DNA from: an uncultured bacterium
GTDB taxonomy: Bacteria; Edwardsbacteria; AC1; EtOH8
DNA length: 64,000 nucleotides
NCBI GenBank assembly: GCA_964588285.1
Contig: CAZPNX010000001.1
Location: 143 to 64,142 of the forward strand
Direction of reading: 5' to 3'
Positions 26,660 through 46,220 of the stretch are shown here, piece by piece (the stretch's first letter is position 1; each line of letters opens with the position of its first letter). The position numbers and the translations under genes are program-made. A model generated the notes under the pieces. It worked only from the letters and a program-made list of their open reading frames with translations, was not told the DNA's origin and searched no databases.

Positions 26660-27742
26660 TTACTTGGGAGCCCGGTGGAGCAGCCAGGCGCCCACCATTC
26701 CAAATACCAAGTTGGGCAGCCAGGCCGCCAGCAGGGGTGAGAGGGAGCCGCCGTGTCCTAAGGCCCGTCCCGTCTGGAGGATGCCCCAGAAGGCAAAACA
26801 GATGAGCATGGAGACGGCAAAGCTGAGGGCGGCCCCGCTGCGGCGGGCATTGGCCATAAGAGGAAGGCCGAACAGCAGGATAATAAGGTTGGCGAAGGGA
26901 AAAGAGAGCTTGAGATAGAGGTCGACCACCGGCCGACGGACGTCCCCACCGGAGCGGCGAATGCGGTCAATATATTTGCGCAGCTCGAAAAAGCCCATCT
27001 CATCGGGTAGCAGCACCGGCTCCACAAAGTCGGCCGGAGTTTCCGGGCAATCCTCCAACACCAGGCTGGCCAGGCTGTCGGCCTGCTCCGAGCCGTCGGG
27101 TCCGAAGCGGCGGCGGATGACCCCCGAGAGAACCCAGCGTCCTTCCCGCCATACCCCCCGGCCTGCGTCGAGGCGCAGCACGATGTTGTGGTTTTTGTCC
27201 AGCTGCAGCAGGCTGAGGGAATCCATCACCCCGCGGTCAGCGTCAAGGCGCTTGATGTAGTATTGGCGGCCCTGAGCTCCGTCGTATAGGAAATGATGGC
27301 GAAGGCTGCGGTCCACCTGAGCTTCCTGGCGGATGCGACGGCGCTCCAGCTCTCCCTTGAGCCGGTTGGTGGCCGGTATCAGGGTCTCGCCCACCGTCAG
27401 GGTGGCCAAGCTGACGGCCAAGCCCAGCAGGAAAAGGGGCAGAAAGATGCGGTAGAGGTGAAGGCCGGCCGCCTTCATGGAGATCATCTCATTATGGCGG
27501 GCCAGAGACCCGGTGACGGCCATGCTGGCCAGAAGCATGGCCACCGGCATCACCAGAACCGTGATGTAGGGGATCTGATAAAGATAATAGAGAAACGCCA
27601 GGGAGACGGTCACCCTGTGGTCTATTAAAAAATCGAGCTTTTCGAAAACATCCACCAGGACGAATATCAAAATGAAGGCCAACAGGCTGAAAAGCAGGGC
27701 CTGGAGAAATTCGGCTAGCAGATAGCGGTCTAAAAGTTTCAT
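26660..27742 (-). CDS. lptG: LptF/LptG-family LPS export permease (YjgP/YjgQ)
   Basis: 'MKLLDRYLLAEFLQALLFSLLAFILIFVLVDVF' is the family N-terminus; 6 TM plus a periplasmic beta-jellyroll insert. Assignment as G rather than F is by gene order only. Confidence 0.8.
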   Translation of the reverse strand: MKLLDRYLLAEFLQALLFSLLAFILIFVLVDVFEKLDFLIDHRVTVSLAFLYYLYQIPYITVLVMPVAMLLASMAVTGSLARHNEMISMKAAGLHLYRIFLPLFLLGLAVSLATLTVGETLIPATNRLKGELERRRIRQEAQVDRSLRHHFLYDGAQGRQYYIKRLDADRGVMDSLSLLQLDKNHNIVLRLDAGRGVWREGRWVLSGVIRRRFGPDGSEQADSLASLVLEDCPETPADFVEPVLLPDEMGFFELRKYIDRIRRSGGDVRRPVVDLYLKLSFPFANLIILLFGLPLMANARRSGAALSFAVSMLICFAFWGILQTGRALGHGGSLSPLLAAWLPNLVFGMVGAWLLHRAPK

Positions 27743-27743
27743 C

Positions 27744-28979
27744 TCAAAGATCTCCTTGTCCGGAACGGGTGCGGCGCCGAACCAGCCTCAGTTCCCATTG
27801 CTGCTTCAGGGTCAAAGCCAGGCCGCAGCAACCCAATATGATATTGGCCGCCCACATGGCCAGAACCGGAGACATCAGCTGTCGATCGGCCAGCTCTTCG
27901 CCGCCGATGAGGCAGGCCCAGTAAAGCAGGAAGAAAGCCAGGGACAGCCCGGCGCTGACGCCGAAGCCACCCCGCCGGGTAACGACACCTAAAGAGGCCC
28001 CCAACAGGACAAAGACGATGCAGGCGGCCGGGATGGCCAGCTTTTTCTGAATCTCAACCTCCAGGCTTCTTTTCTGGCGACACTGGCTCTTGATGTCGTT
28101 TTCCAGCTGCTGACGTTGCCAGTCCGCCGATGGGCCGGCTCCGGAAAGCTGGGCGCGCAGCGGAGCCACCTGGCTGTCGATTTTAGCGATGGCTTGGCGC
28201 ATCATGGCGATGGACATCTCGCGGTCTCCCCGATGCTCCCGGACTTGATGCCGAATCTTATCGTCCAGAGGTAGGTTGATGGTGTGGCGGGAGAAACTCA
28301 TGCGGTGGTAGCGGCCGGGATCGCCGGCGTCCAGTTCGTGGATCTCGCCCCGGGACAACTCCAGGCGCAGTACGTTAAGATCGGGCAGGGATATCAGCCG
28401 GCCTTTTTCGGCGATGATGGTGCGGGGAGTGGCGCCCACCCCCTGCTCGTAGATGGTGATGCCGTAAAGTTGGGATTTGGCCTCATCCACTCGCCGAATG
28501 AGAATGTTATAGCCGGGGAAGTCGCTGATAAAGGCGTTTTCCTGAAGCTTGACGGCCGGCTTGGCCTGGTGGATGTCCATCAGAAGATTTTTGAAGGCGT
28601 GGTTGGCTTCGGGCAGCACCCGGTCGGAAAACCAGAAAAGGCCCAGGCAGATCAGGACCGAGGCCATTCCGGGGAAGGCCAGCAGCCTGGCAAAAGAAAC
28701 ACCGCTGGAGCGCAGGGCGGTGAACTCGTTGTCCTGGGTGAGGCGGCCGAAGGTCATCAGCACCGACACCAGCACCGCCATGGGCACAGTCAGGGCGACG
28801 ATGTTGGGTAGGCCCAGGCCGAAAAGCTTTATCACCAAGCCCAGAGGTACCTTCTTGTTGACGAACAGGTTGATCAGCTCGAACAGCCGATCCATCAGCA
28901 AGATGAAGGTGCACACCGACAATGCCAGCAGGAAAGGCGCCAGGTGTTCGCGAAGCAGGTAGCGATCTATAATGCGCAA
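27744..28979 (-). CDS. lptF: LptF/LptG-family LPS export permease (YjgP/YjgQ)
   Basis: 'MRIIDRYLLREHLAPFLLALSVCTFILLMDRLFE'; tandem with the paralogue downstream. Confidence 0.8.
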   Translation of the reverse strand: MRIIDRYLLREHLAPFLLALSVCTFILLMDRLFELINLFVNKKVPLGLVIKLFGLGLPNIVALTVPMAVLVSVLMTFGRLTQDNEFTALRSSGVSFARLLAFPGMASVLICLGLFWFSDRVLPEANHAFKNLLMDIHQAKPAVKLQENAFISDFPGYNILIRRVDEAKSQLYGITIYEQGVGATPRTIIAEKGRLISLPDLNVLRLELSRGEIHELDAGDPGRYHRMSFSRHTINLPLDDKIRHQVREHRGDREMSIAMMRQAIAKIDSQVAPLRAQLSGAGPSADWQRQQLENDIKSQCRQKRSLEVEIQKKLAIPAACIVFVLLGASLGVVTRRGGFGVSAGLSLAFFLLYWACLIGGEELADRQLMSPVLAMWAANIILGCCGLALTLKQQWELRLVRRRTRSGQGDL

Positions 28980-29158: not shown

Positions 29159-32100
29159 ATGCCTAAAAGTAGGCTCAAGATAATTAAGGCTGCCGCCGGG
29201 CTGCTTTTGCTATTGCTGGCGGGAAAGCTGGAGGCCCAGGGCTTTGGGGCCATGGATTCCCTGGCCGGGACAGTGGCCGGCCGCGACCTGCAGATGCCCG
29301 CCACCACTGTTCAGTACGATCCCGACCTCGACCTCTGGCTGGAGCAGGAACTGGCCCAGGGCATCGTCTTTGATCTGCGCTACCGCACCTTTGATGGTCA
29401 ATGGCAGAGGCGGAGGGAGGAATCGTTGGAATCCCTGACCAGGGCCAGCCGCTACGATTTTCTCTCCAAACCGGCCGAAGCCAGGACCGGCGAAGGGCTG
29501 ATCCCGGATATCTCGGTGCCTCTGCCGGGGCTGGACAAAGTGCTGGGGGCCGGGGCCCAGGTCAAGATCAACGGCAATCAGAAGATCTCGGTGGGCGGCG
29601 AGCAGACGGTCTATCCCAACAGCAAGAGCACCTCGGAGCTGGAGAGGGCCCGAAGCAATTTCGACCTGAAGATCAAGCAGGAGCAGCGCATCAACTTGGA
29701 GGGGGTTATCGGCGACCGTGTCCACGTGCTCATCGACCACGACAGCCAGGCCGATATCGACAAAAAAAGCAAGGTGCGGCTGCGCTACGAGGGCAAGGAG
29801 GACGAAATCATAGAAAGCCTGGAGGCCGGGGACACCGAGTTCTCCATCCAGGGCTCCTCTCTGGTGGGCGGCCTGACCACGGTCCACAAGGGCCTGTTCG
29901 GCATAAAGGGGGTGGCCCGGCTGGGGGGACTGGAGCTTTCGGCCATCGCCAGCAAGGACGAGGGCCAGAGCCAAAGCGAAAGCTATACCGGCCAGAGCCA
30001 GAAGGACAGTTTCGCTTTGCGCGATTACGAGTTCATCAACTATCGATTCTATCGTCTGCCCCTGGCCCAGGGCGACTCCATCATGGACCTGCGGGTCTAC
30101 GTCAACGACAACACCCAGACCAGCCAGGCCATCAATGCCTGGCTCCTGGACCACAGCTGGCGGGACTTCGGCTATGACCCCAGCCGGGTTGACACCCTCT
30201 ACGGCAGCCTGACCCAGATCATGCTTAAGGAGAACCTTACCGACTACGTGCTGGATGACCGCCGCAACGGGATTCTGTACACCCGGCACAGCCTGGACCG
30301 CAGCCACATCATGGCGGTGGCCATGAAGGTCTACAATCCGGGATACGGCGTCCGCTACTATCCGGATTCCACCGCCTTCTATCCCGGAGTCTTCATCAAC
30401 CCCAACCTGGCGGTGATGAAGCGAAGCAACCCCCAGCCTCCGGACAGCATCAACGGCTACAGCTGGCTCTATCAGGAGCGGCGTTTCTACGACCTGCGCA
30501 AGCCGCAGATTATCCAGTCCAGCCTCAAGATCAGGATCTACAAGGACACCGGGGAGAATGTGTTGTTGGAGCGCGACACCCTGATGCCGGGCCGGCCGAC
30601 CTTCATCCACCGGCTGGGGCTGGACCGTGACGACAACGGCGAAATCGACCCCGATTTCCTCCGCCTGGGCGACGAGGGTTTCTTCTATTTCCCCTATAGC
30701 GAACCGTTCGCCATGGACAGTCTGCTTACGGATCCCAACACCGTCATCTACCGCAAGGTTGACCCCGAGCCCAGCGACTCCAAATACCGGGTGGTGATAA
30801 CCTTCCTGACGTCCACCGCCATTTTCAACCTGAGGGCGCCGGGCCGCATCATCGAGGGCAGCGTCAAAGTCTATGTCGGCGGACAGCTGCTGCCAGAGAG
30901 CGATTACCAAATGGACTACGACACGGGATTGATTACCTTTACCGCGGCGGCTTCGGACCGCATCAACCGGCCGGACGTCCAACTGAAGATAGACTATCAA
31001 TACTATCCCATCTTCGCCTTAGGATCCAAGACTCTGGCCGGGGTCCGCGGCCTCTACAAGTTCAACGAATCGTCCCAGCTGGGGGCCACCTGGATGTACC
31101 GCAGCGAACGGACGCCCGAGGACAAGCCGCGCTTGGGCGAAGAGCCGCGGCGCATCATCGTAGCCGGAGTTGACGGAAGTTTTACAGCCAAGCCCGAGCT
31201 GATGACCAGGTTGGCCGATGCCCTACCCGGAGTCGAGACAGAAGCCCCCTCCCGGATGAGCTTTTCTGGCGAGGCGGCCGCCAATTTTCCCAACCCCAAC
31301 ACCAAGGGTCAGGTCTATATAGATGACATGGACGGGGCCAAGCTTTCCGACGAGTTCACCCTGTCGCGGCTCAATTGGGCCCGCTCCAGCGTTCCGACCG
31401 GCAAGCAGGCGTCCCAGCTGGCCCGGACCTTCTATTGGTACAACCCCCGCAACCGGGTTACCATGGGCGAGCTCAACCCCAACCTAACCGACCCGGCCGA
31501 ACGCTCCCAGCAGCTGACCACCCTCAAGATGCACTTAGTGCCGGACACGGCCGCCGGGCCGGCCGATTCCTCTTGGGCCGGGATCACCACAGTCCTCAGC
31601 AAGACGGGTTTGGATCTCACGGAGCGCCGGCTGCTGAATGTTTGGGTGAGGTCGATACGGAGCGATCAGCCGACGGCCGGCCAGGGAAAGCTGCATATCG
31701 ACATCGGCAAGAGCATCCACGAGGACCAGGCCCGGCGCAACGCAGCCGGTCTGCTGGTGGGGCCCAACGATTCGGTGAACGGAGAGCCTCTGAGCGCCGC
31801 CGGGGAGCAGGTGACCACCGACGCCAACGATATCGGCATCGACGGCTTCGCCAACGGCAGCCCCTACGATGACGGCAGCGACGACTTCAACCGGGACGAC
31901 TCCACCCGGATGAACGGCACCGAGGGCAACGGCTACTACGACACCGAGGACCTGCTGTTGACCGGCAAGCCGCTGGGGACGCCCTACGGCACCCCTCAGA
32001 ACAACTACCACACCTTCAGCTTCGATCTTTCCGGCGGCTCGGGTTGGCAGAAACTGACGATCGCCTTGGACAGCGCCCGGCAGGTGGGCAACATCGCCCG

Positions 32101-34780
32101 GAACGAATGGAACAATCTGGTCTACGCCCGGGTCTGGATGGACGGGCTGTCGGCGCCGGGCGACATAGAATTGGCCATGGTCGAGGTCACCGGCAACCGC
32201 TGGCTTTCCCAGGGGGTGGCCACCGAGGACACGGCCAATCCGGTGGATCCGCAATCCGAACGTTTTGACATCAGCGTCAAGAACAACCGGGACGACGCCG
32301 ACTATTCCCAGAATCCGCCTTACACCCCGGACAAAGACGAACAGGGCCGGGTCAAATTCGAGCAGAGCCTGGTGTACAAGATCGCCTCCCTGGACTCGGG
32401 ACATACGGTCAGCGCCAGGAGGAGCCTAAGGGAGGGCGAGAACAACTACACCGGCTACCGTACCATGAGGCTCTACGTCCGCAACCACGGCCGGGCGGTG
32501 CGGGGCTCGTTCTTCGTCAGGCTGATAGCCAGCGACAGCAACAGCTACTATGAATACCGGGAGCCGTTGACCGGCTATTGGCGGGACGTGGGCATCGAGC
32601 TCGACCGTTTCAGCGATCTTAAAAAGCTGCCCCGGGATTCCGGCCAGATCTTTGTCCGACAGGGCAATTACAGCATGCGGGGCCGCCCCAACCTTACCCA
32701 GCTATCGCGCATCGCCCTGGGAGCCTATGTCGATGAAAACGTCGCCACCGGGGACAACGTCGAGGTTTGGTTCGACGACCTGCGGCTGGACGACGTTCGT
32801 CGCGACGGAGGCGCCGCCATGATCACCCGGCTGGACCTGGGCTTCGCCGATCTGCTAGATGTCAACCTGAGCTACAACGACCGGAGCAGCCATTTCTATC
32901 GGATCGATGAGAGGCCGCCGACTTCGGGCAGCCGCAGCCAGGCCTTTGGGGCCAGCGGCACCATCAGGCTTCATAAGTTTTTCCTGGAGAAGCTGGGGCT
33001 GACCCTGCCGCTAACCTACCGTTATGCCGCCAGCAACACCTATCCCGAATTCGGCCGGGACGATATCCGTTTGAACAAGGAGGAGAGCCGGGAGGAAGCG
33101 ACGCGCCGCCGGGAATTGGGCTTTGGGGCCGGCATCAGCAAAAGCCTGTCCAAGTATTGGCTGACCAACCTGACGGTGGACCGTCTGTCTCCCTCTGTCA
33201 GCTGGAGCCGGAACACCGGACGGGATCCCAATTCGGCCGACAGCAACACCACCCTCACCATGGCTTTGGGCTACCGTTGGTCCCCGGCGACTCGGAGGGA
33301 GCTCAAGGTATTCCGGGGTTGGAAACTTTCCTACCTGCCCTCCAACCTCTCTTGGGACTGGAATAGCTCACAAACCAGGATATGGCGCTGGGACAAGCTG
33401 GCCAATGTGGTGAGCACTGTCGGCAGCGGCCGGACCCGCACTGCCCAAGGCCAGTTCGGCTGGCAGCCGGTGGAGCAGCTGACCTACAGTTTTGGCACCC
33501 AGCGCAACCTGCTGCAGAAAAGGATGGCCGGCCATCTGGCCCAGAGGCTGGGGCTGGGTTCGGAGGTGGGCCGCAATCAGAGTATAGATTACCGCACCAA
33601 CGTCAAATGGCTGAAGGTGGTTCAACCCACCGTCTCCTACACCGTCCGGTACAACGAGAGCCACCAGATGTACGGAGGCCAGGCCGGCGCCGACTCGGTG
33701 GACGTTATGGCCACCACCAACTCCAACAGCTTTTCCTCATCGGCCGGATTGGGCCTGGGCAAATGGATGTCCTTCTTGACCGGGCTGCGAAACGAGAAGC
33801 ACGACACCTCGGCCGAAGCCGGCAGTCCCAGGTGGGCGGTGATCCAGTTGGAGAAGTTCTTCAAGAGATGGAACGGAGTCTCGCTGGAATTTTCCCAGAC
33901 CAAGTCCAGCCAGACTTCGGGACTGTTGAGCCGGCCCGGATTTCTCTATCAGATCGGATGGCAAAGGGATCCTTCAGGCATCGCCCGCTACCGGCAGGCC
34001 GGCTCGGATCAGAGCAGTTTGGGCAACAACTATTCGGCCACCACCCAGGCGTCTATGGGAAGGATAAGCCTGGACCTGGCCTGGAGGCTGGGCGATGAAT
34101 GGAGGTGGTCGGGAGGCGTCACCAGCAGCCGCCGAAGCTTGACCTGGCCGGACGTCAGGGCCACCATGGGGTCTCTGGAGAGGCTGGGTTTTTGGAGGAA
34201 GGCCATGTCCAGCTCCAGCCTGACCGCCAACTACAGCCTGACCGCCGACAGCAGCTGGCAGCAGGACCGCGGATTTTTAAGCAAGGGCCAAAGGCAGAGG
34301 ATAGGAGCCGCCTGGAACGGCCGCTGGAAGAACCAAATCAACTCAGACCTGTCGGCCGATTATTCGCTGGAGGAAACCCGCGAGCCCAACCAGAACTATC
34401 CCGACGGCATCTTCCACAAGGTGACCTCCAGCCGCAAGCTTTCCACTTCGCTCTCCTATGCTTTCAGCGCCCCCAAGGGACTGGTGCTGAATTTTGGCAA
34501 GCTGGGTAAGCGACGCTTTAGATTCACAAGCTCCTTGAGCATGTCGCTGCGGGCCGAGTACACCGAGCGCGAGGAGAAAAGCAACTCGGTCGCCTCCAGG
34601 GATCTGGTGCCGTCGCGGCGTAGCCAGGAACTTTCTGTAGCCCCCAGCGCCAGCTACAATTTCTCCCGCAGCATTACCGGAAACCTGGCTATGGAGTACG
34701 CCTTCAACAAAGACAGGATCTCCTCGGTCAACAATTGGCGCCGCTATAGCCTTAACGCCGCGGTGGATATCAAGTTCTGA
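29159..34780 (+). CDS. giant (1873 aa) secreted outer-membrane protein; predicted very large beta-barrel (SprA-like?)
   Basis: Sec signal peptide 'MPKSRLKIIKAAAGLLLLLLAGKLEAQG'. Long C-terminal region of alternating-polarity beta-strand patterns rich in W/Y/S/R/N. C-terminus 'LNAAVDIKF' matches the OMP beta-signal (terminal Phe). No secretin motif seen. Confidence 0.8.
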   Translation: MPKSRLKIIKAAAGLLLLLLAGKLEAQGFGAMDSLAGTVAGRDLQMPATTVQYDPDLDLWLEQELAQGIVFDLRYRTFDGQWQRRREESLESLTRASRYDFLSKPAEARTGEGLIPDISVPLPGLDKVLGAGAQVKINGNQKISVGGEQTVYPNSKSTSELERARSNFDLKIKQEQRINLEGVIGDRVHVLIDHDSQADIDKKSKVRLRYEGKEDEIIESLEAGDTEFSIQGSSLVGGLTTVHKGLFGIKGVARLGGLELSAIASKDEGQSQSESYTGQSQKDSFALRDYEFINYRFYRLPLAQGDSIMDLRVYVNDNTQTSQAINAWLLDHSWRDFGYDPSRVDTLYGSLTQIMLKENLTDYVLDDRRNGILYTRHSLDRSHIMAVAMKVYNPGYGVRYYPDSTAFYPGVFINPNLAVMKRSNPQPPDSINGYSWLYQERRFYDLRKPQIIQSSLKIRIYKDTGENVLLERDTLMPGRPTFIHRLGLDRDDNGEIDPDFLRLGDEGFFYFPYSEPFAMDSLLTDPNTVIYRKVDPEPSDSKYRVVITFLTSTAIFNLRAPGRIIEGSVKVYVGGQLLPESDYQMDYDTGLITFTAAASDRINRPDVQLKIDYQYYPIFALGSKTLAGVRGLYKFNESSQLGATWMYRSERTPEDKPRLGEEPRRIIVAGVDGSFTAKPELMTRLADALPGVETEAPSRMSFSGEAAANFPNPNTKGQVYIDDMDGAKLSDEFTLSRLNWARSSVPTGKQASQLARTFYWYNPRNRVTMGELNPNLTDPAERSQQLTTLKMHLVPDTAAGPADSSWAGITTVLSKTGLDLTERRLLNVWVRSIRSDQPTAGQGKLHIDIGKSIHEDQARRNAAGLLVGPNDSVNGEPLSAAGEQVTTDANDIGIDGFANGSPYDDGSDDFNRDDSTRMNGTEGNGYYDTEDLLLTGKPLGTPYGTPQNNYHTFSFDLSGGSGWQKLTIALDSARQVGNIARNEWNNLVYARVWMDGLSAPGDIELAMVEVTGNRWLSQGVATEDTANPVDPQSERFDISVKNNRDDADYSQNPPYTPDKDEQGRVKFEQSLVYKIASLDSGHTVSARRSLREGENNYTGYRTMRLYVRNHGRAVRGSFFVRLIASDSNSYYEYREPLTGYWRDVGIELDRFSDLKKLPRDSGQIFVRQGNYSMRGRPNLTQLSRIALGAYVDENVATGDNVEVWFDDLRLDDVRRDGGAAMITRLDLGFADLLDVNLSYNDRSSHFYRIDERPPTSGSRSQAFGASGTIRLHKFFLEKLGLTLPLTYRYAASNTYPEFGRDDIRLNKEESREEATRRRELGFGAGISKSLSKYWLTNLTVDRLSPSVSWSRNTGRDPNSADSNTTLTMALGYRWSPATRRELKVFRGWKLSYLPSNLSWDWNSSQTRIWRWDKLANVVSTVGSGRTRTAQGQFGWQPVEQLTYSFGTQRNLLQKRMAGHLAQRLGLGSEVGRNQSIDYRTNVKWLKVVQPTVSYTVRYNESHQMYGGQAGADSVDVMATTNSNSFSSSAGLGLGKWMSFLTGLRNEKHDTSAEAGSPRWAVIQLEKFFKRWNGVSLEFSQTKSSQTSGLLSRPGFLYQIGWQRDPSGIARYRQAGSDQSSLGNNYSATTQASMGRISLDLAWRLGDEWRWSGGVTSSRRSLTWPDVRATMGSLERLGFWRKAMSSSSLTANYSLTADSSWQQDRGFLSKGQRQRIGAAWNGRWKNQINSDLSADYSLEETREPNQNYPDGIFHKVTSSRKLSTSLSYAFSAPKGLVLNFGKLGKRRFRFTSSLSMSLRAEYTEREEKSNSVASRDLVPSRRSQELSVAPSASYNFSRSITGNLAMEYAFNKDRISSVNNWRRYSLNAAVDIKF

Positions 34781-34855: not shown

Positions 34856-35299
34856 ATGCTGGGATTAACCAAGGACGAAAAGCTGGTCATCGTTTTCCTC
34901 AGCATCAGCCTGGCGGCGGGGAGCTTGTTGTTGCTCTATAAAAGATTTCACCCCTCCTTCGCTACCGGACTACTCCGGTCGGACAAAGTTCTGCCGGCTC
35001 CGCTTACGGATACACTGTTTTCAGAGGCATCAGATTCCCTGCTTTCCCAGGAACCGGCCGCTGTCCGGACGGAAAAAATTGGTCCCGCCCGGGTTCCCTT
35101 GGCTCCGGTAAACATCAACACTGCCGGCCAAAAGACACTGGAAGCCCTGCCGCATATCGGCCCCTCAATGGCCAAGAGGATCATCGAGTACCGCAGCGCC
35201 TCGGGCGGATTTACCAACATCGAGCAACTGGGAAGGGTCAAAGGCATCGGCCCCAAGCGTCTGGAACAGCTCAGGCAGCATGTGACGGTTGACAGATGA
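34856..35299 (+). CDS. comEA: ComEA-family competence protein (membrane-anchored helix-hairpin-helix DNA-binding protein)
   Basis: N-terminal TM 'LVIVFLSISLAAGSLLLLY'; C-terminal tandem HhH 'ININTAGQKTLEALPHIGPSMAKRIIEYR...GFTNIEQLGRVKGIGPKRLEQL'. Confidence 0.8.
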   Translation: MLGLTKDEKLVIVFLSISLAAGSLLLLYKRFHPSFATGLLRSDKVLPAPLTDTLFSEASDSLLSQEPAAVRTEKIGPARVPLAPVNINTAGQKTLEALPHIGPSMAKRIIEYRSASGGFTNIEQLGRVKGIGPKRLEQLRQHVTVDR

Positions 35300-35355
35300 C
35301 GGCCGGAGGACAAAGTTTGACCGCCGGCCTTTATATTCCGGGCTTAGTTTTTTTC

Positions 35356-35384
35356 TTGACAAGCTCGGCTGGGTGTGATATAGT
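35356..35384 (+). promoter_or_regulatory. sigma-70 consensus promoter for the pilB operon
   Basis: TTGACA (35356-35361), 17-nt spacer, TGaTATAGT extended -10 (35376-35384), then SD 'AAGGGGAGGA' and ATG at 35408. Preceded by a GGCCGG...CCGGCC hairpin after comEA. Confidence 0.55.
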
Positions 35385-35407: not shown

Positions 35408-37102
35408 ATGGCGTTGAAACTCGGCGATTTCCTGGTTCAGAATAAGCTGATCACCAATGATCAGTTAAATGCCGCTTTGGCCGAGCAGAAGAACTCCGGC
35501 GAGCGACTGGGCTCCTGCCTGATCAAGCTGAAGTTCATCTCCGAGGAAAAGATCACCGAGGCTCTGGGCAAGCAGTTCAACCTGCCCACGATCAACCTCT
35601 CCAATATTGAGATCGATCCCCAGATACTGAAGCTGATACCGCACGAGATGGCTCACAAGTTCCAGATCGTCCCCATATCCAAGACCGGCCGCGTTCTGCA
35701 GCTGGCCATGTCCAACCCAGCCGACGTCTTTACCATCGACAACATCCAGTTTCTTACCGGACTGGAGGTAAAACCGGTGGTCTGCGCCGAGACCGCCATT
35801 GCCCGGGCGGTGGACAAGCTCTACGCCGCCTCAACCGGCCTGACCGAGGCCATGAAGGCGGTGCAGGAGGAGGAGGCCGCCGAGGTGGAGTTCGTGGAGA
35901 GGGAGGCCGAGCAGAACGTCACCCAGGCCGACATCGACGCCGCCCCGGTGGTCAAGCTGGTCAACAGCATGATCTTTGACGCCATCAAGCGGGGAGCCTC
36001 GGACATCCACATCGAGCCCTACGAGAAGGTGCTGCGGGTGCGCTTCCGCATCGACGGGGTTCTTCAGGAGACCATGTCGCCTCCAAAGCGCATTGCGGCC
36101 GCGGTAGCCTCGCGCATCAAGGTGCTCTCCAAGCTCAATCTGACCGAGCGCCGCCTGCCCCAGGACGGACGCTTCTCGGTCAAATCCGGCGACCAGAACG
36201 TCGACTTCCGCGTCTCCACCATGCCCATCAAGCACGGGGAGAAAATCTGCATCCGCATCCTGCGGCAGTCCGGCCTGTCCGGGGACCTTAACAAGCTGGG
36301 CCTTCAAGGCAAACCGCTGGAAGACCTTCTCAGTGCCATTGCCAAACCTCAGGGCATGGTGCTGATCACCGGACCCACCGGTTCGGGCAAGACCAACACC
36401 CTCTACTCCTGCATCAGCCGGCTGAACACGCCCAAGGTCAACATCAGCACCGCCGAGGATCCGGTGGAATACGACATCATGGGCATCAACCAGGTAAACG
36501 TTCAGACCGAGATCGGCTACACCTTCGCTAAGGCGCTCAAGGCCTTTCTGAGGCAGGATCCCAACATCATCCTGGTGGGCGAGATCCGGGACCGGGAGAC
36601 CGGCCAGATCGCCATGGAGGCGGCCATGACCGGCCACATGGTGCTTTCCACCCTGCACACCAACGACGCCCCCAGCACCCTGAACCGCCTGATCGAGATG
36701 GAGATCCCCACCTTCCTGATCGCGGCCACGGTCATCCTGATCGAGGCCCAGCGGCTGGTGCGCACCATCTGCCCCCACTGCAAGCAGCCTGACAAGCTGA
36801 GCCCGGACGACATCGCCAAGATGGGGGTGGACCCCCAGCTTTTGGCCGGAGCCACCCTCTACAAGGGGGCCGGCTGCATGGAATGCAACCGCACCGGCTA
36901 CAAGGGCCGGGTGGGCCTGTTCGAGATCCTGCCGGTGACCCCGGCCATCCGGGCGGCCATTTTGGCCAAGGCCACCTCGGACGAGATTAGAAAGATCGCG
37001 GTCAGGGAGGGGGTGAAGCTGTTGCGCGAAGACGGACTGGACAAGGTGCGGGCCGGGATCACCACCCTGGAGGCGGTCATCGCCAAGACGGTGGTCGACT
37101 GA
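35408..37102 (+). CDS. pilB: type IV pilus assembly ATPase PilB/GspE family (paralogue 1) with MshEN-type N-domain
   Basis: Walker A 'GPTGSGKT', Asp box, His box, tetracysteine 'CPHC...CMEC'. N-domain repeats 'KLGDFLVQNKLITNDQLNAALAEQ' and 'RLGSCLIKLKFISEEKITEALGKQ' match the 24-residue c-di-GMP-binding MshEN motif. Confidence 0.9.
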   Translation: MALKLGDFLVQNKLITNDQLNAALAEQKNSGERLGSCLIKLKFISEEKITEALGKQFNLPTINLSNIEIDPQILKLIPHEMAHKFQIVPISKTGRVLQLAMSNPADVFTIDNIQFLTGLEVKPVVCAETAIARAVDKLYAASTGLTEAMKAVQEEEAAEVEFVEREAEQNVTQADIDAAPVVKLVNSMIFDAIKRGASDIHIEPYEKVLRVRFRIDGVLQETMSPPKRIAAAVASRIKVLSKLNLTERRLPQDGRFSVKSGDQNVDFRVSTMPIKHGEKICIRILRQSGLSGDLNKLGLQGKPLEDLLSAIAKPQGMVLITGPTGSGKTNTLYSCISRLNTPKVNISTAEDPVEYDIMGINQVNVQTEIGYTFAKALKAFLRQDPNIILVGEIRDRETGQIAMEAAMTGHMVLSTLHTNDAPSTLNRLIEMEIPTFLIAATVILIEAQRLVRTICPHCKQPDKLSPDDIAKMGVDPQLLAGATLYKGAGCMECNRTGYKGRVGLFEILPVTPAIRAAILAKATSDEIRKIAVREGVKLLREDGLDKVRAGITTLEAVIAKTVVD

Positions 37103-37142
37103 ACTGGGTTGCTGAACTATAATAATATAGCAAAATAGGTAG

Positions 37143-38867
37143 ATGGCACTCAAGATAGGCGACATGCTGCTCAAGGCCGGTCTGATTTCCGGCGAGCAGC
37201 TGGACAAGGCCCTCAAGGAGCAGCAAAACACCAGCGGCCGGCTGGGATCCATCCTGGTGAAGCTGGGCTTCATCACCGAGGACGAGATCGTCCAGTTCCT
37301 CTCCAAACAGTTCAACGTGCCCTCGGTCAACCTGTCGGAGTACAAGATAGACGCCGCCACCATCAAGCTGATCCCTCCCCACATCGCCCAGAAGTACGGG
37401 GTCATCCCCCTGACTCGGCTGGGCCGGGTGATCACCGTGGCCATGGTCAATCCCAACGACGTTCTGGCCATGGACGACATCAAGTTCTCCACCGGCTTCG
37501 ACGTCCGGCCGGTGGTGGCCTCGGAGGGAGCCATCTGGTCGGCCATCGACAAGCAATACGGGTCGGCCGGAATGCTGGAGGACATGATGAAGTCATTGGA
37601 CGAGGCCATGGAGTCCGAGGACGAAGCGGGGCTGGAGGTGCTGGAGGAGGAGAAGGAGGACCAGAACGACGCCGCCTCGGAGATGGCGGCCGCCATCGAG
37701 AACAGCCCGGCCGCCAAGCTGGTCAACAAGCTGATAGCCGAGGCGGTGCAGCGCAGGGCCACCGACATCCACATCGAACCCTATGAGAAGGAGATGAGGG
37801 TGCGGATGTCGGTGGACGGGGTGCTCCACGAGATCATGAACCCACCGCTGAAGATGAAATCGTCGCTGGTGGCCCGCACCAAGATCATCTCCAAGCTCAA
37901 GGTGGAGGAAAAGCGCCTGCCCCAGGACGGCCGCATCCGGATGGTGCTTCAGGGCAAACCCATCGACATCCGGGTGTCCATCGTCCCCACCGCCTTCGGG
38001 GAGAAGGTGGCCATGCGCATCCTGGACCGGAGCAACGTCTCCTTCGACTTCAAGGACCTGGGGTTCGAGGAGGGTCCGCTGAAGCACCTGATCAAGGCCA
38101 TCACCACCCCCTTCGGCATCGTGCTGGTGACCGGCCCCACCGGCTGCGGCAAGACCACCACTCTCTACGCCTGTCTGGAGTACGTCAACAAGCCGGACAC
38201 CAACGTCATGACGGCCGAGGAGCCGGTGGAATACAGCTTGGTGGGAATCAACCAGGTCCCGGTCAAGGAGGAGGGGGGCACCACCTTCGCCGCCGCCCTC
38301 AAGGCCTTCCTGCGGCAGGACCCAAACATCATCATGGTGGGCGAGATCCGGGACAAGGAGACGGCCGAGATCGCCATCCGCTCCTCTCTCACCGGCCACC
38401 TGGTGATGTCCACCGTCCACACCAACAGCGCCGCCCTGACCATCACCCGTCTGGTGGACATGGGGGTCGAGCCTTTCATGATCGCCTCGTCCCTGCTGTG
38501 CGTCGAATCGCAGCGTCTGGTGCGGAGGATCTGCCCCTACTGCAAGGAAGAGCACCGGCCGGACGAGAAGCTGACGGCCGAGTTTTTAGGCAAGCACGTG
38601 GACATGCGCAGCATGAAGTTCTACCGGGGGAGGGGCTGCGCCGAGTGCCGCAACACCGGCTACAAGGGGCGGCTGGGGCTCTACGAGATCCTGCCCATCA
38701 CTCCGGCCATCAGGGACCTGATCCTGCAGAGCGCCACCACCGAAATCATCGAGAAAAAGGCGGTGGAGGAGGGCATGCCCACTCTGCGGCGCGACGGCAT
38801 CCTCAAGGTCTCCAAGGGTCTGACCACCATCGAGGAAGTCATCAAGGAAACCGTGGCCGAGGACTAG
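37143..38867 (+). CDS. pilB: PilB/GspE-family ATPase (paralogue 2) with MshEN-type N-domain
   Basis: '[10 protein letters not shown]', 'CPYC...CAEC'. N-domain '[24 protein letters not shown]' / '[24 protein letters not shown]'. Confidence 0.9.
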
Positions 38868-38921
38868 GATTTCGCGACCACTTGTCACCAAAAAATTGAT
38901 CATTCTTTGCAAGATTAGATA

Positions 38922-40694
38922 ATGGCGCAGAACCTGGCCGAGATGCTGATGAAGATGGGCCTTTTAACCAAGGCCCAGTACGATAAAGCGGTGCTGGAGC
39001 AGAAGACGGCGGCCGAGCCTCAGGCGGCCACCTTGGTGCGCCTGGGCATGGTCACCGAGAACGTCATGACCCAGTTTCTCTCCCGCCAGTTCAACGTACC
39101 CTCCATGGACCTGTCAAACTTTCAGGTGGAGCCGGCAGTGCTGAAGCTGGTCAAGGCCGACGTGGCCAACCGCTTCCTGGCGGTGCCCATCAAGCGGTTG
39201 GGCCGCAGCCTGACGGTGGCCATGGTCGATCCCTCGGATATCTTCGCCCTGGAGGATATCAAGTTTCTCACCGGGCTGGAGGTCAAGCCGGTGGCCGCCG
39301 GCTACAACGCCATCCGCAAACTCTTGGAGCAGCATTATCCTCTGGGAAAGGACCTGACGGTCATCTCGGAGACGGCCGGAAATCTTGCCCAGATCAAGGA
39401 TCAGGTTCTGGAGGAGCTGCCCGTATCCGAACTGGCCGAGGCCGGCTCCGGGGACATGGAGATGGAGTGGGTGGACGATGGGGAGGTCGAGGAGGACGTG
39501 GACATCTCCCAACTGCAGCAGGCCGGCCAGGCCACCCCGGTGGTCAAGATGGTAAACTACATCATGACCGAGGCGGTGCGGCGAGGGGCCTCGGACATCC
39601 ACATTGAGCCCTACGAGAAACTGTTCCGGGTGCGCCTGCGTCAGGACGGGGTGCTGCAGACCCTGATGGAGCCGCCCCTGAGGATGAAGGCTCCGTTGGT
39701 GGCCCGCATCAAGGTCATGTCCAAGCTCAACGTCACCGAGAGGCGCAAGCCCCAGGATGGCCGCATCGCCCTCAAGGTGCTGGGGAAGAAGATCGACCTG
39801 CGGGTTTCCACACTGCCGGTGCTGTTCGGCGAAAAGGTGGTGATGCGTATCTTGGACGCCAGCTCCCTGACGCTGGACCTGGCCAACTTTGGCTTTACAG
39901 AGCTGGCCCTGCGCAACTTCATGAAGGCCATCCACGCCCCCTACGGCATTCTGCTGATAACCGGCCCCACCGGCTCGGGCAAGACCACCACATTGTACTC
40001 GGCCCTGTCCCAGCTGAACACGCCCGACCGCCACATTCTGACGGTGGAGGACCCCATCGAGTACAACCTTAAGGGCATAAACCAGATCCAGGCCGAGCCC
40101 CAGATAGGCCTGACCTTTGGGGCGGCCCTGAGGGCCATGCTCCGGCAGGCGCCCAATATCATCATGCTGGGCGAGATCCGTGACGGGCCGACGGCCGAAA
40201 TCGCGGTCCGGGCGGCTCTCACCGGACACCTGGTTCTATCCACCCTGCACACCAACGACGCCCCGTCCTCGGTGTCGCGTCTGATAGACATGGGCATCGA
40301 GCCGTTCCTGGTGGCCTCCTCGTGCATTCTGATCCAGGCCCAGCGTTTGGTGCGCCGCATTTGCAAACAGTGTAAGGCCCCGGCCAATGTCAACCCCCAG
40401 CTTTTGTACGACATGGGATACAAACCCGAGGACATCAAGGATGTGGCCTTCTTCAAGGGCAAAGGCTGCTCGGTCTGCAACAATACCGGATACAAGGGCC
40501 GGGTGGGTCTGTACGAGGTGATGCCCATCACCCCGGAGATACGGGAGATGATACTTACCAAGCAGGCGGTGACCACCATTCGGGCCAAGGCGGTGGAGCA
40601 GGGCATGCTCACCCTGCGCATGGACGCCTGGGGCAAGGTCAAGCAGGGGATGACCACGGTGGAGGAGATGATCCGGGAAACGGCCGAAGGCTAA
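38922..40694 (+). CDS. pilB: PilB/GspE-family ATPase (paralogue 3); N-domain MshEN motifs degenerate
   Basis: 'GPTGSGKTTT', 'CKQC...CSVC'. N-domain 'NLAEMLMKMGLLTKAQYDKAVLEQ' (LG to LA) and 'AATLVRLGMVTENVMTQFLSRQ' (leading RLG lost). Confidence 0.9.
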   Translation: MAQNLAEMLMKMGLLTKAQYDKAVLEQKTAAEPQAATLVRLGMVTENVMTQFLSRQFNVPSMDLSNFQVEPAVLKLVKADVANRFLAVPIKRLGRSLTVAMVDPSDIFALEDIKFLTGLEVKPVAAGYNAIRKLLEQHYPLGKDLTVISETAGNLAQIKDQVLEELPVSELAEAGSGDMEMEWVDDGEVEEDVDISQLQQAGQATPVVKMVNYIMTEAVRRGASDIHIEPYEKLFRVRLRQDGVLQTLMEPPLRMKAPLVARIKVMSKLNVTERRKPQDGRIALKVLGKKIDLRVSTLPVLFGEKVVMRILDASSLTLDLANFGFTELALRNFMKAIHAPYGILLITGPTGSGKTTTLYSALSQLNTPDRHILTVEDPIEYNLKGINQIQAEPQIGLTFGAALRAMLRQAPNIIMLGEIRDGPTAEIAVRAALTGHLVLSTLHTNDAPSSVSRLIDMGIEPFLVASSCILIQAQRLVRRICKQCKAPANVNPQLLYDMGYKPEDIKDVAFFKGKGCSVCNNTGYKGRVGLYEVMPITPEIREMILTKQAVTTIRAKAVEQGMLTLRMDAWGKVKQGMTTVEEMIRETAEG

Positions 40695-40789
40695 CACTAA
40701 GAAACACAAAATACAAAATCCAAATCTCAAAAGATCAGCGCCAAAGCCGTACTTTGAATTTTGAATTTTGGATTTAGAGGAGTAAAGAG

Positions 40790-41863
40790 ATGATCACCCT
40801 GCAGCAGCTTCTGGAGGAACTGATCCAAAAGAAGGCCACCGACCTCCACCTGACGGCCGGGGTGCCCCCGGTTTTCCGCATCGACGGGGAGCTGGTCCAG
40901 TCCAACCACGAGATCATGACCCCGCAGATGACCGAGCAGCTGGCCTACAGCATTCTTACCGACCAGCGGAAAAAGCGCTTTGAAATGGAAAAGGAACTGG
41001 ACCTGTCCATAGGCATCACCGGCCTGTCGCGATTTAGGGGCAACGTCTTCCTGCAGCGGGGCGGGGTGGCCATGGCCCTGCGCACCATTCCCTGGGAGAT
41101 CCGCTCCTTCCAGGCCCTGGGTCTGCCTCCGGTGGCGGCCGAGCTGTCCGACAAGCCCAAGGGGCTGGTGCTGGTGACCGGGCCCACCGGTTCCGGCAAA
41201 TCCACCACCCTGGCCACCATGCTGGACAAGGTCAATTCCGAGCGCCGCTCCCACATTCTGACAGTGGAGGACCCCATCGAATATATGCACCACCACAAGA
41301 AGTGCATCGTCAACCAGCGGGAATTGGAGTCAGACACCAAGAGCTTCGGAAACGCCCTGAAGTACGCCCTGCGCCAGGATCCGGACGTGGTGCTGATAGG
41401 CGAAATGCGGGACCTGGAAACCATCGAGGCCGCTTTGCGCATCTCGGAGACCGGGCACCTGACCTTTGCCACCCTGCACACCAACTCGGCCATGGAGTCC
41501 ATCCACCGCATCATCGACGTCTTCCCGCCGCACCAGCAGTCACAGGTGCGGGCCCAGCTGGCCTTTGTGCTGGAGGGGGTGATGACCCAGCAGCTGGTGC
41601 CTATGACCCGCGGGGGCCGCTGTCTGGCGTTGGAGATCATGATCTGCACCCCGGCCATCAAAGCCCTGATCCGCGACGACAAGGTTCACCAAATCTACTC
41701 CCTGATGCAGGCCGGCCAGAAGTACGGCATGCAGACCATGAACCAATCACTGTTCCAGCTGTTTATGGACAAGAAGATTTCTTTAGACACGGCCCTGGAT
41801 TACTCTCCGGCTGTGGAAGAGCTGGATCAGATGATCAAGCGGAGAACGGCAAACGCGGTGTGA
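40790..41863 (+). CDS. pilT: twitching motility retraction ATPase PilT
   Basis: Lacks the GspE N-domain. 'ATDLHLTAGVPPVFRIDGEL', Walker A 'GPTGSGKSTT', 'AIKALIRDDKVHQIYSLMQAGQKYGMQTMNQSL' PilT C-terminal motif. Confidence 0.9.
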   Translation: MITLQQLLEELIQKKATDLHLTAGVPPVFRIDGELVQSNHEIMTPQMTEQLAYSILTDQRKKRFEMEKELDLSIGITGLSRFRGNVFLQRGGVAMALRTIPWEIRSFQALGLPPVAAELSDKPKGLVLVTGPTGSGKSTTLATMLDKVNSERRSHILTVEDPIEYMHHHKKCIVNQRELESDTKSFGNALKYALRQDPDVVLIGEMRDLETIEAALRISETGHLTFATLHTNSAMESIHRIIDVFPPHQQSQVRAQLAFVLEGVMTQQLVPMTRGGRCLALEIMICTPAIKALIRDDKVHQIYSLMQAGQKYGMQTMNQSLFQLFMDKKISLDTALDYSPAVEELDQMIKRRTANAV

Positions 41864-42227
41864 GAGGACAGGAATTTTCATCCCGCGCATTTCCCATGCC
41901 TGGCAAATTGATGAGGTGCCCTGAGGCGGGCATACACGACTGCATGCGAAGGGGATGACGAGCAGAGTCGCCCTTCAGTTTGCCGGGCAGGGAGCCATCC
42001 CTCGGCAGGCGTTTGACCGAGCTCAAGCCTAGGTCTCGGGACAAGACTCAGGGTGACAAGTAAGCAGAAAACCTGTCATCCCGAGAAAGGCGGAGTGCCC
42101 GACAGGCTGTGGGATGACGATAAAGCAGAAAAGCCTCACCCTTCATCCAGTCAGGCGAGAATGCCAGATTCAGGGTGACAGCATGGAAGGTTAATAACAC
42201 TAGATAAACCCCATAGGGAGCACCAAA
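41864..42227. repeat. cluster of 4-5 imperfect ~40-nt dispersed repeats in the pilT-pilC spacer
   Basis: Units such as 'GGGGATGACGAGCAGAGTCGCCCTTCAGTTTGCCGGGCAGGG' and 'GGGATGACGATAAAGCAGAAAAGCCTCACCCTTCATCCAGTCAGGC'. Related copies lie at ~43490-43560 and 61930-62005. Confidence 0.5.
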
Positions 42228-45993: not shown

Positions 45994-46025
45994 ATTGCAA
46001 AATGCGAAAAGTTGCATTTTGCAAT
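45994..46025. promoter_or_regulatory. perfect 12-bp inverted repeat (candidate enhancer/UAS) upstream of the pilin sigma-54 promoter
   Basis: ATTGCAAAATGC-gaaaagtt-GCATTTTGCAAT, ~115 bp upstream of the -24 element. Confidence 0.45.
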
Positions 46026-46154: not shown

Positions 46155-46220
46155 TTATAATTTAATGGAATTCTAACAAAACCAACAACCAACCATTTAA
46201 CACTTTAGGAGGCAAAACGG

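What the first reader, a model, noticed from the sequence alone, without database searches (positions are those of the whole stretch)
29159..34780. 1873-aa signal-peptide protein with OMP beta-signal: a giant outer-membrane barrel heading the pilus/competence locus
This is the largest gene in the window. It has a cleavable Sec signal. Its last ~800 residues are dominated by short amphipathic beta-strand patterns rich in aromatic, Ser, Asn and Arg residues (for example 'LTANYSLTADSSW', 'LSTSLSYAFSAP', 'LSVAPSASYNFSRSITGNLAMEYAFN'). It ends with 'YSLNAAVDIKF', a textbook C-terminal beta-signal. This implies a very large (>26-strand) barrel, in the size class of LptD or the ~36-strand SprA translocon of type IX secretion. 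It sits divergently from lptFG and directly upstream of comEA and the pilB operon. No secretin gene (PilQ/GspD) is present anywhere in the window, and I see no secretin C-domain motif in the protein. Three identities are possible:
(a) a SprA-like T9SS translocon that is merely a neighbour;
(b) an unusually large LptD-like protein paired with lptFG;
(c) a secretin-independent outer-membrane conduit for the adjacent pilus/DNA-uptake machinery.
Option (c) would be new.
Basis: partly seen in the sequence, partly recalled or inferred. Interest (0 to 1): 0.8.

Follow-up and report, generated by a model that had tools for sequence, protein, structure and literature searches.

The report
Compact SprA type IX secretion translocon
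The giant outer-membrane gene is an ordinary, somewhat shortened orthologue of SprA/Sov, the pore of the type IX protein secretion system, in an uncultured candidate-phylum bacterium; nothing indicates that it is a new channel for the neighbouring pilus and DNA-uptake genes.

Summary
Window 29159-34780 (+) encodes an 1873-aa protein with a Sec-type signal peptide, a beta-strand-rich C-terminal third and a C-terminal ...VDIKF. It lies divergent from lptF/lptG and upstream of comEA, three pilB paralogues, pilT and pilC. No secretin is encoded in the window.

The protein is SprA/Sov, the type IX secretion (T9SS) translocon:
- NCBIfam TIGR04189 scores 408 bits (cut-off 200).
- A clade profile aligns colinearly with solved F. 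johnsoniae SprA (E 1e-111).
- AlphaFold models of both halves hit only SprA chains (E 1e-35 to 1e-55). LptD hits are noise and no secretin appears.

About 1850-1950-aa "compact" SprAs are the norm in UBP2/Edwardsbacteria, TA06, WOR-3, Zixibacteria and Eisenbacteria.

Across SprA loci from other genomes:
- the divergent lptFG pair is widespread (41 of 67), including beside a canonical 2409-aa SprA;
- comEA follows sprA in 16 of 60;
- pilB follows in only 9 of 51;
- other lineages have nusA-infB or other housekeeping genes there.

Sister genomes encode T9SS C-terminal-domain cargo, one on the same contig as its sprA.

I could not test whether this genome has GldKLMN/PorV or PilQ.

The parts
29159..34780 (+). 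sprA/sov orthologue, 1873 aa (compact form of the T9SS outer-membrane translocon)
   Evidence: ORF. TIGR04189 scores 407.9 bits against a cut-off of 200. PDB 6h3i_A SprA E 3e-29 with the single sequence and 1.3e-111 with the clade profile.
29159..29236 (+). predicted Sec signal peptide (aa 1-26, cleavage LEA|QG; the mature N-terminus would be Gln)
   Evidence: Read directly from the sequence. Twelve of 16 clade members carry an A-Q dipeptide at or near the end of the N-terminal hydrophobic stretch. No predictor was run.
29495..30028 (+). conserved N-terminal block of beta-hairpins (aa ~113-290), probably the first barrel strands
   Evidence: Many invariant residues, G113...G278. Aligns to F. 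johnsoniae SprA 39-328. Eight to nine long strands at aa 133-288 in the N-terminal model.
30827..31414 (+). best-scoring stretch against the SprA HMM and against solved SprA (aa 557-752)
   Evidence: TIGR04189 positions 598-795; 6h3i_A residues 697-882.
31781..31972 (+). invariant Asp/Gly-rich loop (aa 875-938, ...IGIDGFANG..DDGSDDF..NGTEGNGYYDTEDL...), modelled with low confidence
   Evidence: Invariant D891 G893 D895 D904 G906 D908 D909 G920 T921 E922 N924 D928 E930. pLDDT < 50 at fragment residues 202-265. A metal-binding role is my inference only.
32360..33076 (+). Pfam SprA_N (PF14349) match, aa 1068-1306
   Evidence: 47.4 bits against a cut-off of 27.
32702..34777 (+). C-terminal run of 27 long beta-strands (aa ~1182-1871), the bulk of the barrel wall
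   Evidence: DSSP on the AlphaFold model, mean pLDDT 80.6. Foldseek hits SprA chains at E 1.8e-51 to 3.6e-42, TMq 0.52-0.57.
34745..34777 (+). C-terminal OMP beta-signal-like end YSLNAAVDIKF
   Evidence: Sequence. The terminal F is invariant in alignment A1.
26660..28979 (-). two LptF/LptG-family LPS-export permease genes, divergent from sprA (conserved neighbours)
   Evidence: PF03739 at E 1e-84 and 1e-87. The same arrangement occurs in 41 of 67 SprA loci and beside a canonical 2409-aa SprA.
34856..35299 (+). comEA-like gene (N-terminal membrane anchor plus helix-hairpin-helix domain), 76 bp after sprA, probably co-transcribed
   Evidence: PF12836 at 2.7e-22. TIGR00426 scores 52.9 bits, just under its 53.1 cut-off. 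No terminator-like site lies between sprA and comEA. comEA is found downstream of sprA in 16 of 60 loci.
35356..35384 (+). sigma-70-like promoter (TTGACA-17-TATAGT with TG) just upstream of pilB1, preceded by a GC hairpin with a U-rich tail after comEA
   Evidence: 11 of 12 consensus matches. The hairpin at 35300-35335 folds at -18.2 kcal/mol but its z-score is only -0.93.
35408..43442 (+). neighbouring type IV pilus genes: pilB x3, pilT, pilC. Context only; not part of the SprA unit.
   Evidence: Pfam T2SSE/MshEN/T2SSF. The paralogues are 47-50% identical and their Walker A motifs are intact.

Best explanation
The gene encodes the SprA/Sov orthologue of an uncultured bacterium related to the candidate phyla UBP2 and Edwardsbacteria (Edwardsiibacteriota).

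Inferred mechanism, by homology with F. johnsoniae SprA:
- The protein is exported by Sec and inserted by BAM through its C-terminal beta-signal.
- It forms a very large single-chain barrel (36 strands in the solved homologue).
- Folded inserts cap the outer end of the barrel. This is known only for the solved homologue; the half-models here were not inspected for it.
- Periplasmic proteins carrying a T9SS C-terminal domain pass through it to the cell surface.

It is a compact version, about 530 residues shorter than Bacteroidota SprA. The difference comes mostly from many small deletions plus one of about 80 residues.

The divergent lptFG pair is an ancient positional partner of sprA. comEA is probably co-transcribed with sprA in this and several other lineages. 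The pilB-pilT-pilC operon behind it has its own promoter and is a lineage-specific neighbour.

Shown: family membership, fold, synteny pattern, and T9SS cargo in sister genomes. Inferred: that this copy acts as a protein translocon together with a full T9SS encoded elsewhere in this genome.
For: Sequence and structure:
- TIGR04189 (equivalog, 'T9SS outer membrane translocon Sov/SprA') scores 407.9 bits against a cut-off of 200, E 8.8e-122. Pfam SprA_N scores 47.4 bits against 27.
- A profile of the 16-member clade against the PDB matches only SprA (6h3i_A, 6h3j_A), E 1.3e-111. The alignment is colinear: 39-315 to 39-328, 333-1603 to 411-2006, and weakly 1636-1842 to 2164-2384.
- AlphaFold models of aa 674-1873 (pLDDT 80.6) and aa 1-1200 (pLDDT 71.9) both give SprA chains 8gl8_A, 8gl6_A, 6h3i_A and 6h3j_A as the four top Foldseek hits, at E 1e-35 to 4e-55. 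The next hit is at E 4e-5 or worse.

Distribution:
- There is a graded series of homologues, from 80% identity down to named 'cell surface protein SprA' of Bacteroidota, Balneolaceae and Rhodothermales.
- 279 genome loci encode relatives. Those of ~1750-1950 aa come from UBP2, Edwardsbacteria, WOR-3, Zixibacteria, Eisenbacteria and related groups.
- The divergent lptF/lptG position is shared with a canonical 2409-aa SprA and with 41 of 67 loci.

T9SS cargo in relatives:
- T9SS type A sorting domains (TIGR04183, 39-44 bits against a cut-off of 23) occur in proteins encoded in sister loci L006, L013 and L025.
- The L006 cargo (P0121; PF18962) is on the same 246,030-bp contig as that genome's SprA, between pilB1 and pilB2.

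Literature: the T9SS is described for the Fibrobacteres-Chlorobi-Bacteroidetes superphylum (PMC11205867). The SprA 36-strand capped barrel is described in PMC10202324.
Against: - No other T9SS component (GldK/L/M/N, PorV, PorU, SprE, SprT) and no CTD-bearing cargo is encoded in the 64-kb window or in about 10 kb beyond each end. I could not search the rest of this genome.
- The protein is about 22% shorter than characterised SprAs.
- The last ~230 residues align only weakly by sequence to F. johnsoniae SprA.
- No full-length model was possible (1200-aa limit). The strand number and the cap were therefore not verified for the whole chain.
- The recurrent sprA-comEA adjacency has no explanation in the current T9SS model.
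Confidence: 0.85

Rival explanations
1. The SprA homologue has been co-opted, or doubles, as the outer-membrane conduit for the adjacent type IV pilus / DNA-uptake machinery in place of a PilQ secretin.
For: - comEA lies 76 bp downstream with no terminator-like site in between.
- sprA followed by comEA, sometimes with a glutaminyl cyclase gene between them, recurs in UBP2/Edwardsbacteria, a 'Gemmatimonadota'-labelled MAG group, WOR-3 and Zixibacteria: 16 of 60 loci.
- No secretin is encoded in the window or in any fetched locus (regex only).
Against: - pilB follows sprA in only 9 of 51 loci. Elsewhere the downstream genes are rimP-nusA-infB-rbfA-truB, dxs, murB and similar housekeeping genes.
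- pilB1 has its own strong promoter-like site.
- pilMNOPQ is commonly a separate operon in bacteria with a pilB-pilT-pilC-pilSR-pilA cluster (my own knowledge). Its absence from 64 kb therefore says little.
- In the solved homologue the outer end of the barrel is closed by folded inserts (PMC10202324). That does not suit a pilus fibre.
- A sister genome with the same layout carries a T9SS cargo gene inside the locus. SprA there has an obvious T9SS job.
Confidence: 0.04
2. It is an unusually large LptD-like LPS insertase working with the divergent LptF/LptG.
For: - It is immediately divergent from lptF/lptG, and this pairing is conserved in 41 of 67 loci.
- It is a large barrel with a beta-signal.
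Against: - No OstA (PF03968) or LptD (PF04453) hit, even at E<=1.
- LptDE structures appear only at E 2e-3 to 6e-3 with TMq 0.12-0.14 for the C-terminal model, and E 6e-3 or worse with TMq 0.07 for the N-terminal model. SprA scores E 1e-51 with TMq 0.52-0.57.
- The same lptFG pairing is seen beside a canonical 2409-aa SprA.
Confidence: 0.01
3. It is a genuine SprA translocon, and the conserved sprA-(QC)-comEA unit reflects a real functional or regulatory coupling. Examples would be co-regulated envelope functions, or a periplasmic helix-hairpin-helix protein acting as a T9SS accessory rather than in competence.
For: - The same order and strand, with tiny or overlapping gaps, is found in at least four phylum-level lineages whose SprAs are only 26-33% identical to the window's SprA.
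- A glutaminyl cyclase related to the P. gingivalis enzyme is inserted between sprA and comEA in several of them. This fits SprA's predicted N-terminal Gln.
Against: - The adjacency is absent from most lineages, including Bacteroidota.
- The helix-hairpin-helix domain scores as ordinary ComEA.
- No paper links the two genes.
- Shared ancestry of gene order could explain the pattern.
Confidence: 0.1

Closest known systems
Flavobacterium johnsoniae SprA (PDB 6H3I/6H3J, 8GL6/8GL8) and its P. gingivalis orthologue Sov: the T9SS outer-membrane translocon
   Same: - HMM match above the equivalog cut-off.
- Colinear alignment over nearly the full length.
- Both half-models superpose on SprA only.
- Sec signal and C-terminal aromatic end.
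- Divergent lptFG neighbour, as in at least one canonical long SprA locus.
   Different: - 1873 aa against 2403 aa. The shortening comes from many short deletions and one of about 80 aa after residue 1658.
- 13-16% identity in the structural alignments.
- The host is a candidate phylum outside Bacteroidota.
- A comEA-like gene follows it.
- Partner proteins (PorV, Plug, PPI, SprE) were not located.
LptD (LPS insertase; 26-strand barrel plus OstA jellyroll)
   Same: A large single-chain outer-membrane barrel, genetically next to lpt genes.
   Different: No OstA or LptD domains. Structural similarity is at background level.
PilQ/GspD secretins (outer-membrane channel of type IV pili, competence and T2SS)
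   Same: Only the genomic vicinity of pilB/pilT/pilC and comEA.
   Different: Secretins are multimeric rings of ~600-800-aa subunits with a PF00263 domain. This protein is a monomeric giant barrel, has no secretin domain, and gives no secretin among its fold hits.

Membership tests
SprA/Sov (T9SS translocon) | Scores above the curated cut-off of the equivalog HMM TIGR04189 and of Pfam SprA_N | tested here: met
   407.9 bits against 200; 47.4 bits against 27.
SprA/Sov (T9SS translocon) | Colinear, near full-length sequence homology to the experimentally solved SprA | tested here: met
   The clade profile against 6h3i_A gives E 1.3e-111 and covers profile positions 39-1603 strongly and 1636-1842 weakly. 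The single sequence gives E 3e-29.
SprA/Sov (T9SS translocon) | SprA fold (giant single-chain barrel with inserted cap domains) | tested here: met
   The models of aa 674-1873 and aa 1-1200 each give four SprA chains as top Foldseek hits (E 1e-35 to 4e-55, TMq 0.37-0.57). The next hits are at least 30 orders of magnitude weaker.
SprA/Sov (T9SS translocon) | 36 transmembrane strands and a closed extracellular cap | tested here: inconclusive
   DSSP gives about 8-9 long strands at aa 133-288, about 5 at aa 608-710 and 27 at aa 1182-1871. That is compatible with ~36. However, membrane strands cannot be separated from cap strands without coordinates, and no full-length model was possible (1200-aa limit).
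SprA/Sov (T9SS translocon) | Sec signal peptide and C-terminal OMP beta-signal | tested here: met
   By inspection of the sequence and by conservation of F1873. Twelve of 16 clade members carry an A-Q dipeptide at or near the end of the N-terminal hydrophobic stretch. No dedicated predictor was run.
Type IX secretion system (whole machine) | Cargo proteins with T9SS C-terminal sorting domains in the same genome | tested here: inconclusive
   None in the window or ~10 kb beyond each end. Present in sister genomes: L006 (same contig as its SprA), L013 and L025, with TIGR04183 at 39-44 bits against a cut-off of 23.
Type IX secretion system (whole machine) | GldK/L/M/N (PorK/L/M/N), PorV, PorU, SprE/PorW and SprT/PorT encoded in the genome | not testable with these tools
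   Only the window and 10-kb flanks are readable. No seed sequences from this lineage were available.
LptD/OstA | OstA N-terminal jellyroll (PF03968) and LptD C-terminal barrel (PF04453) | tested here: not met
   No hit at E<=1. LptDE structures score E 2e-3 or worse with TMq 0.14 or lower.
Secretin (PilQ/GspD) | Secretin C-domain PF00263 | tested here: not met
   No Pfam or NCBIfam hit. No secretin among the top 50 listed Foldseek hits for either model.
Dedicated pilus/competence outer-membrane conduit (hypothetical) | Consistent co-occurrence of the gene with pilB/pilT/pilC across genomes | tested here: not met
   pilB lies within 3.5 kb downstream in 9 of 51 loci. These are confined to UBP2/Edwardsbacteria and two 'Gemmatimonadota'-labelled MAGs.

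The most novel reading that the evidence does not exclude
In the candidate phyla that carry the compact SprA, sprA-(glutaminyl cyclase)-comEA is a conserved operon. It may be that the translocon, or the machinery around it, is functionally tied to DNA uptake or type IV pili. In the extreme case SprA would serve as the outer-membrane passage for DNA reaching ComEA in organisms that lack a secretin.
Probability: 0.04. Interest if true: 0.8.

Novelty: new member of a known kind. Interest (0 to 1): 0.2.

Why it matters
It mostly tidies up an annotation. JGI labels the protein 'hypothetical protein', and other sources holding it give it no name. It is in fact the T9SS translocon of a candidate phylum related to UBP2 and Edwardsbacteria. 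This fits the view that type IX secretion is spread through the wider FCB radiation rather than confined to Bacteroidota.

Two by-products may interest T9SS specialists:
- A naturally minimised SprA (about 1850-1950 aa) shows which parts of the 2400-aa model protein are dispensable.
- sprA keeps a very old divergent pairing with lptF/lptG and, in several phyla, a downstream glutaminyl cyclase and comEA.

None of this opens a new kind of system.

Tried and rejected
- Pfam/NCBIfam scans of about 50 window proteins for T9SS parts, secretin or LptD found none apart from SprA.
- Extending the window by ~10 kb at each end through the look-up of encoding contigs gave only polysaccharide-synthesis genes on one side and purine/lipid genes on the other.
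- A regex for the secretin C-terminal motif over all 88 fetched sequences gave no hit. This is a weak test.
- A regex for T9SS CTD tails gave four hits, none in the window. Three were scanned and confirmed by TIGR04183.
- Searching with the L006 cargo for an orthologue in the window's organism found none.
- Clustering the flanking ORFs of 80 SprA loci to find T9SS genes nearby turned up only housekeeping families: nusA, infB, truB, ribF, dxs, ispA, murB, folD, recG, ftsE, htrA, ptsI.
- Two 69-sequence alignments failed in the tool and were replaced by 32-sequence ones.
- A tblastn of SprA against plasmids found only a Parabacteroides record. I did not pursue it, because Bacteroidales seeds would not reach this lineage with the word-indexed search.
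- The hairpin after comEA looks like a terminator but is not statistically distinguishable from shuffles.
- Literature searches found no statement on T9SS in UBP2/Edwardsbacteria and no sprA-comEA link.
Full report
**Observation**

Window 29159-34780 (+) is one uninterrupted ORF of 1873 codons. It is the longest in the window.
- The N-terminus MPKSRLKIIKAAAGLLLLLLAGKLEA|QGF has the three regions of a Sec signal peptide.
- Twelve of the 16 aligned clade members carry an A-Q dipeptide at or near the end of the N-terminal hydrophobic stretch.
- The protein ends ...YSLNAAVDIKF, and the terminal Phe is invariant in a 16-sequence alignment.

- two LptF/LptG-family permeases divergent at 26660-28979;
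- a membrane-anchored ComEA-like helix-hairpin-helix protein at 34856-35299;
- three PilB paralogues, then PilT and PilC;
- a PilS-like/PAS/sigma-54 activator;
- pilins.

The rest of the window is a polysaccharide/O-antigen cluster, metK, ahcY, topA and other housekeeping genes. No protein of the window has a secretin domain.

**Identity**

Sequence evidence:
- The NCBIfam equivalog model TIGR04189 ('T9SS outer membrane translocon Sov/SprA') scores 407.9 bits against a cut-off of 200.
- Pfam SprA_N is also above threshold. No OstA/LptD or secretin model matches, even at E<=1.
- Against all PDB sequences the only hits are F. johnsoniae SprA (6h3i_A, 6h3j_A), at E 3e-29.
- A profile of 16 clade members raises this to E 1.3e-111. 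The alignment is colinear from residue ~39 to ~1603, with a weak continuation to the C-terminus.

Structural evidence. The 1200-residue limit forced two overlapping AlphaFold models: aa 674-1873 (mean pLDDT 80.6) and aa 1-1200 (71.9).
- For both, the four top Foldseek hits in the PDB are the four SprA chains, at E 1e-35 to 4e-55 and query-normalised TM 0.37-0.57.
- The next hits start at E 4e-5.
- LptD appears only at E 2e-3 or worse with TM 0.14 or lower. No secretin appears among the top 50 listed hits.
- DSSP shows about 8-9 long strands at aa 133-288, about 5 at aa 608-710 and 27 at aa 1182-1871.
- This fits the 36-strand capped barrel described for SprA (PMC10202324). I cannot give an exact membrane-strand count without a full-length model.

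**Who else has it**

The database search gives a continuous series:
- 80% identical proteins of the same length;
- 42-48% identical ones from TA06 and Edwardsbacteria;
- 26-33% identical ones from WOR-3;
- then the 2300-2700-aa proteins that sources name 'cell surface protein SprA' (Bacteroidota, Balneolaceae, Rhodothermales, Thermochlorobacter).

A scan of one genome per GTDB species found 279 loci. The nearest are 'bacterium UBP2_UBA4780' (78%) and MAG CAZFJC01 (80%). Further relatives are Edwardsbacteria, WOR-3, Stahlbacteria, Eisenbacteria, Zixibacteria, Cloacimonadota, Krumholzibacteriota and Latescibacterota (taxonomy).

The ~1750-1950-aa form is therefore the usual SprA of these candidate phyla. 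Compared with long SprAs, the difference is many small deletions plus one of about 80 residues after aa 1658.

**Gene neighbourhood across genomes**

I ran tblastn with the window's neighbours against the 80 genome loci:
- lptF/lptG divergent and adjacent in 41 of 67 loci with enough upstream DNA;
- comEA within 1.5 kb downstream in 16 of 60;
- pilB within 3.5 kb downstream in 9 of 51.

The pilB cases are all UBP2/Edwardsbacteria, plus two 'Gemmatimonadota'-labelled MAGs.

Clustering the flanking ORFs showed what lies downstream elsewhere: rimP-nusA-infB-rbfA-nrnA-truB-ribF. Other neighbours are dxs, ispA, folD, murB, recG, ftsE and htrA. sprA therefore sits in housekeeping territory.

A canonical 2409-aa SprA on a 3.9-Mb contig has the same divergent lptF/lptG pair; a Thermochlorobacter one does not. 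The lptFG pairing is thus an old positional feature of sprA itself. It is not a sign of an LptD-like function.

**Transcription signals in the window**
- No terminator-like site lies in the 76 bp between sprA and comEA.
- A GC hairpin followed by UUUAUAUU comes after comEA, but it is not significant against shuffles.
- A near-consensus TTGACA-17-TATAGT with an extended TG lies at 35356-35384, 24 bp before pilB1.

The likely units are sprA-comEA and, separately, pilB1-... This is an inference from consensus scans, and these organisms may use other promoter types.

**Is there a T9SS to serve?**

The window and ~10 kb beyond each end hold no other T9SS gene and no cargo.

Sister genomes do encode T9SS type A sorting domains above the TIGR04183 cut-off:
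- a 1431-aa protein in L006, a relative whose SprA is 45% identical;
- a protein in L013 (Edwardsbacteria);
- a protein in L025 (WOR-3).

The L006 cargo (P0121; PF18962) lies on the same 246-kb contig as that genome's SprA. It is inserted between pilB1 and pilB2 of the same lptFG-sprA-comEA-pilB layout. So in a lineage with this very arrangement, SprA has T9SS substrates. The T9SS is described as a feature of the FCB superphylum (PMC11205867).

I could not test whether the window's own genome has GldKLMN, PorV, PorU or a PilQ.

**Verdict on the three options**
- (a) SprA-like T9SS translocon: supported.
- (b) LptD-like: refuted for membership.
- (c) Secretin-independent pilus/DNA conduit: no positive evidence. 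The pilB linkage is lineage-restricted, pilB has its own promoter-like site, and the SprA cap known from the solved homologue is ill-suited to a fibre.

What remains mildly unexplained is the recurrent sprA-(glutaminyl cyclase)-comEA order, seen in at least four phylum-level lineages. I give about 10% to a real functional or regulatory coupling. I give about 4% to the strong reading that SprA carries DNA or pili.

**Novelty and score**

This is a new member of a known kind. It is a compact SprA in an uncultured candidate phylum that JGI labels 'hypothetical protein', although Pfam already tags it. A specialist would not be surprised. Interest 0.2.

Noticed in passing
window 35408-40694: Three tandem PilB extension-ATPase paralogues (564, 574 and 590 aa) are 47-50% identical to each other. 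Each has an MshEN N-domain and an intact Walker A motif. The triplet is conserved in UBP2/Edwardsbacteria relatives (L004-L010, L013). Why one pilus cluster needs three PilBs is unexplained.
   Followed up: partly
L013 7536-8492; L020 15424-16356; L027 15454-16350; L044 7522-8445: In several compact-SprA lineages a type II glutaminyl cyclase lies directly downstream of sprA and before comEA. It matches PDB 6qro and 6qql, annotated glutamine cyclotransferase, at E 1e-59 to 1e-52. SprA itself, and 11 of its 15 aligned clade relatives, carry A-Q at or near the end of the N-terminal hydrophobic stretch, so cleavage there would expose an N-terminal Gln. The 'Q-rule' paper states that the rule holds in Bacteroidetes but not in the entire FCB group (PMC5837995), so this may extend it. 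The window has no such gene next to sprA.
   Followed up: partly
window 26660-28979 with 29159-34780; L088 5220-15230: The divergent lptG-lptF | sprA arrangement is conserved in 41 of 67 SprA loci across many FCB candidate phyla. It also occurs next to a canonical 2409-aa SprA. This is an old synteny between LPS export permeases and the T9SS translocon. I did not search the literature for this pairing specifically.
   Followed up: partly
L006 17977-22272: In a sister MAG a 1431-aa T9SS cargo gene (Por_Secre_tail plus FlgD_ig) is inserted between pilB1 and pilB2 of the otherwise conserved pilB triplet.
   Followed up: yes
window 31781-31972 (SprA aa 875-938): This Asp/Gly-rich stretch (IGIDGF..DDGSDDF..NGTEGNGYYDTEDL) is invariant across the clade and nearly so in long SprAs, yet it is modelled with pLDDT < 50. 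It looks like a metal-binding loop region. No function was tested.
   Followed up: no
window 4000-16000 and 46000-48000: Two blocks have lower G+C (0.48-0.51, against 0.56-0.63 elsewhere). They coincide with the glycosyltransferase/Wzy/flippase polysaccharide cluster and with the pilin genes. Both are typical places for horizontally exchanged, diversifying surface genes.
   Followed up: no
window 47361-48359: This 332-aa ORF has a HAMP-like segment (aa 88-139) followed by a prepilin N-methylation motif at aa 163-185. Either the start codon is miscalled and a pilin begins near aa 160, or this is an odd fusion.
   Followed up: no
window 43688-45904: A single 738-aa protein combines a PilS-like 6-TM domain, a PAS domain, a sigma-54 AAA+ activator domain and a Fis HTH. 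It is a PilS-PilR fusion without recognisable kinase or receiver modules, and it lies just before the pilin genes. It is conserved in relatives L005 and L008-L010.
   Followed up: no
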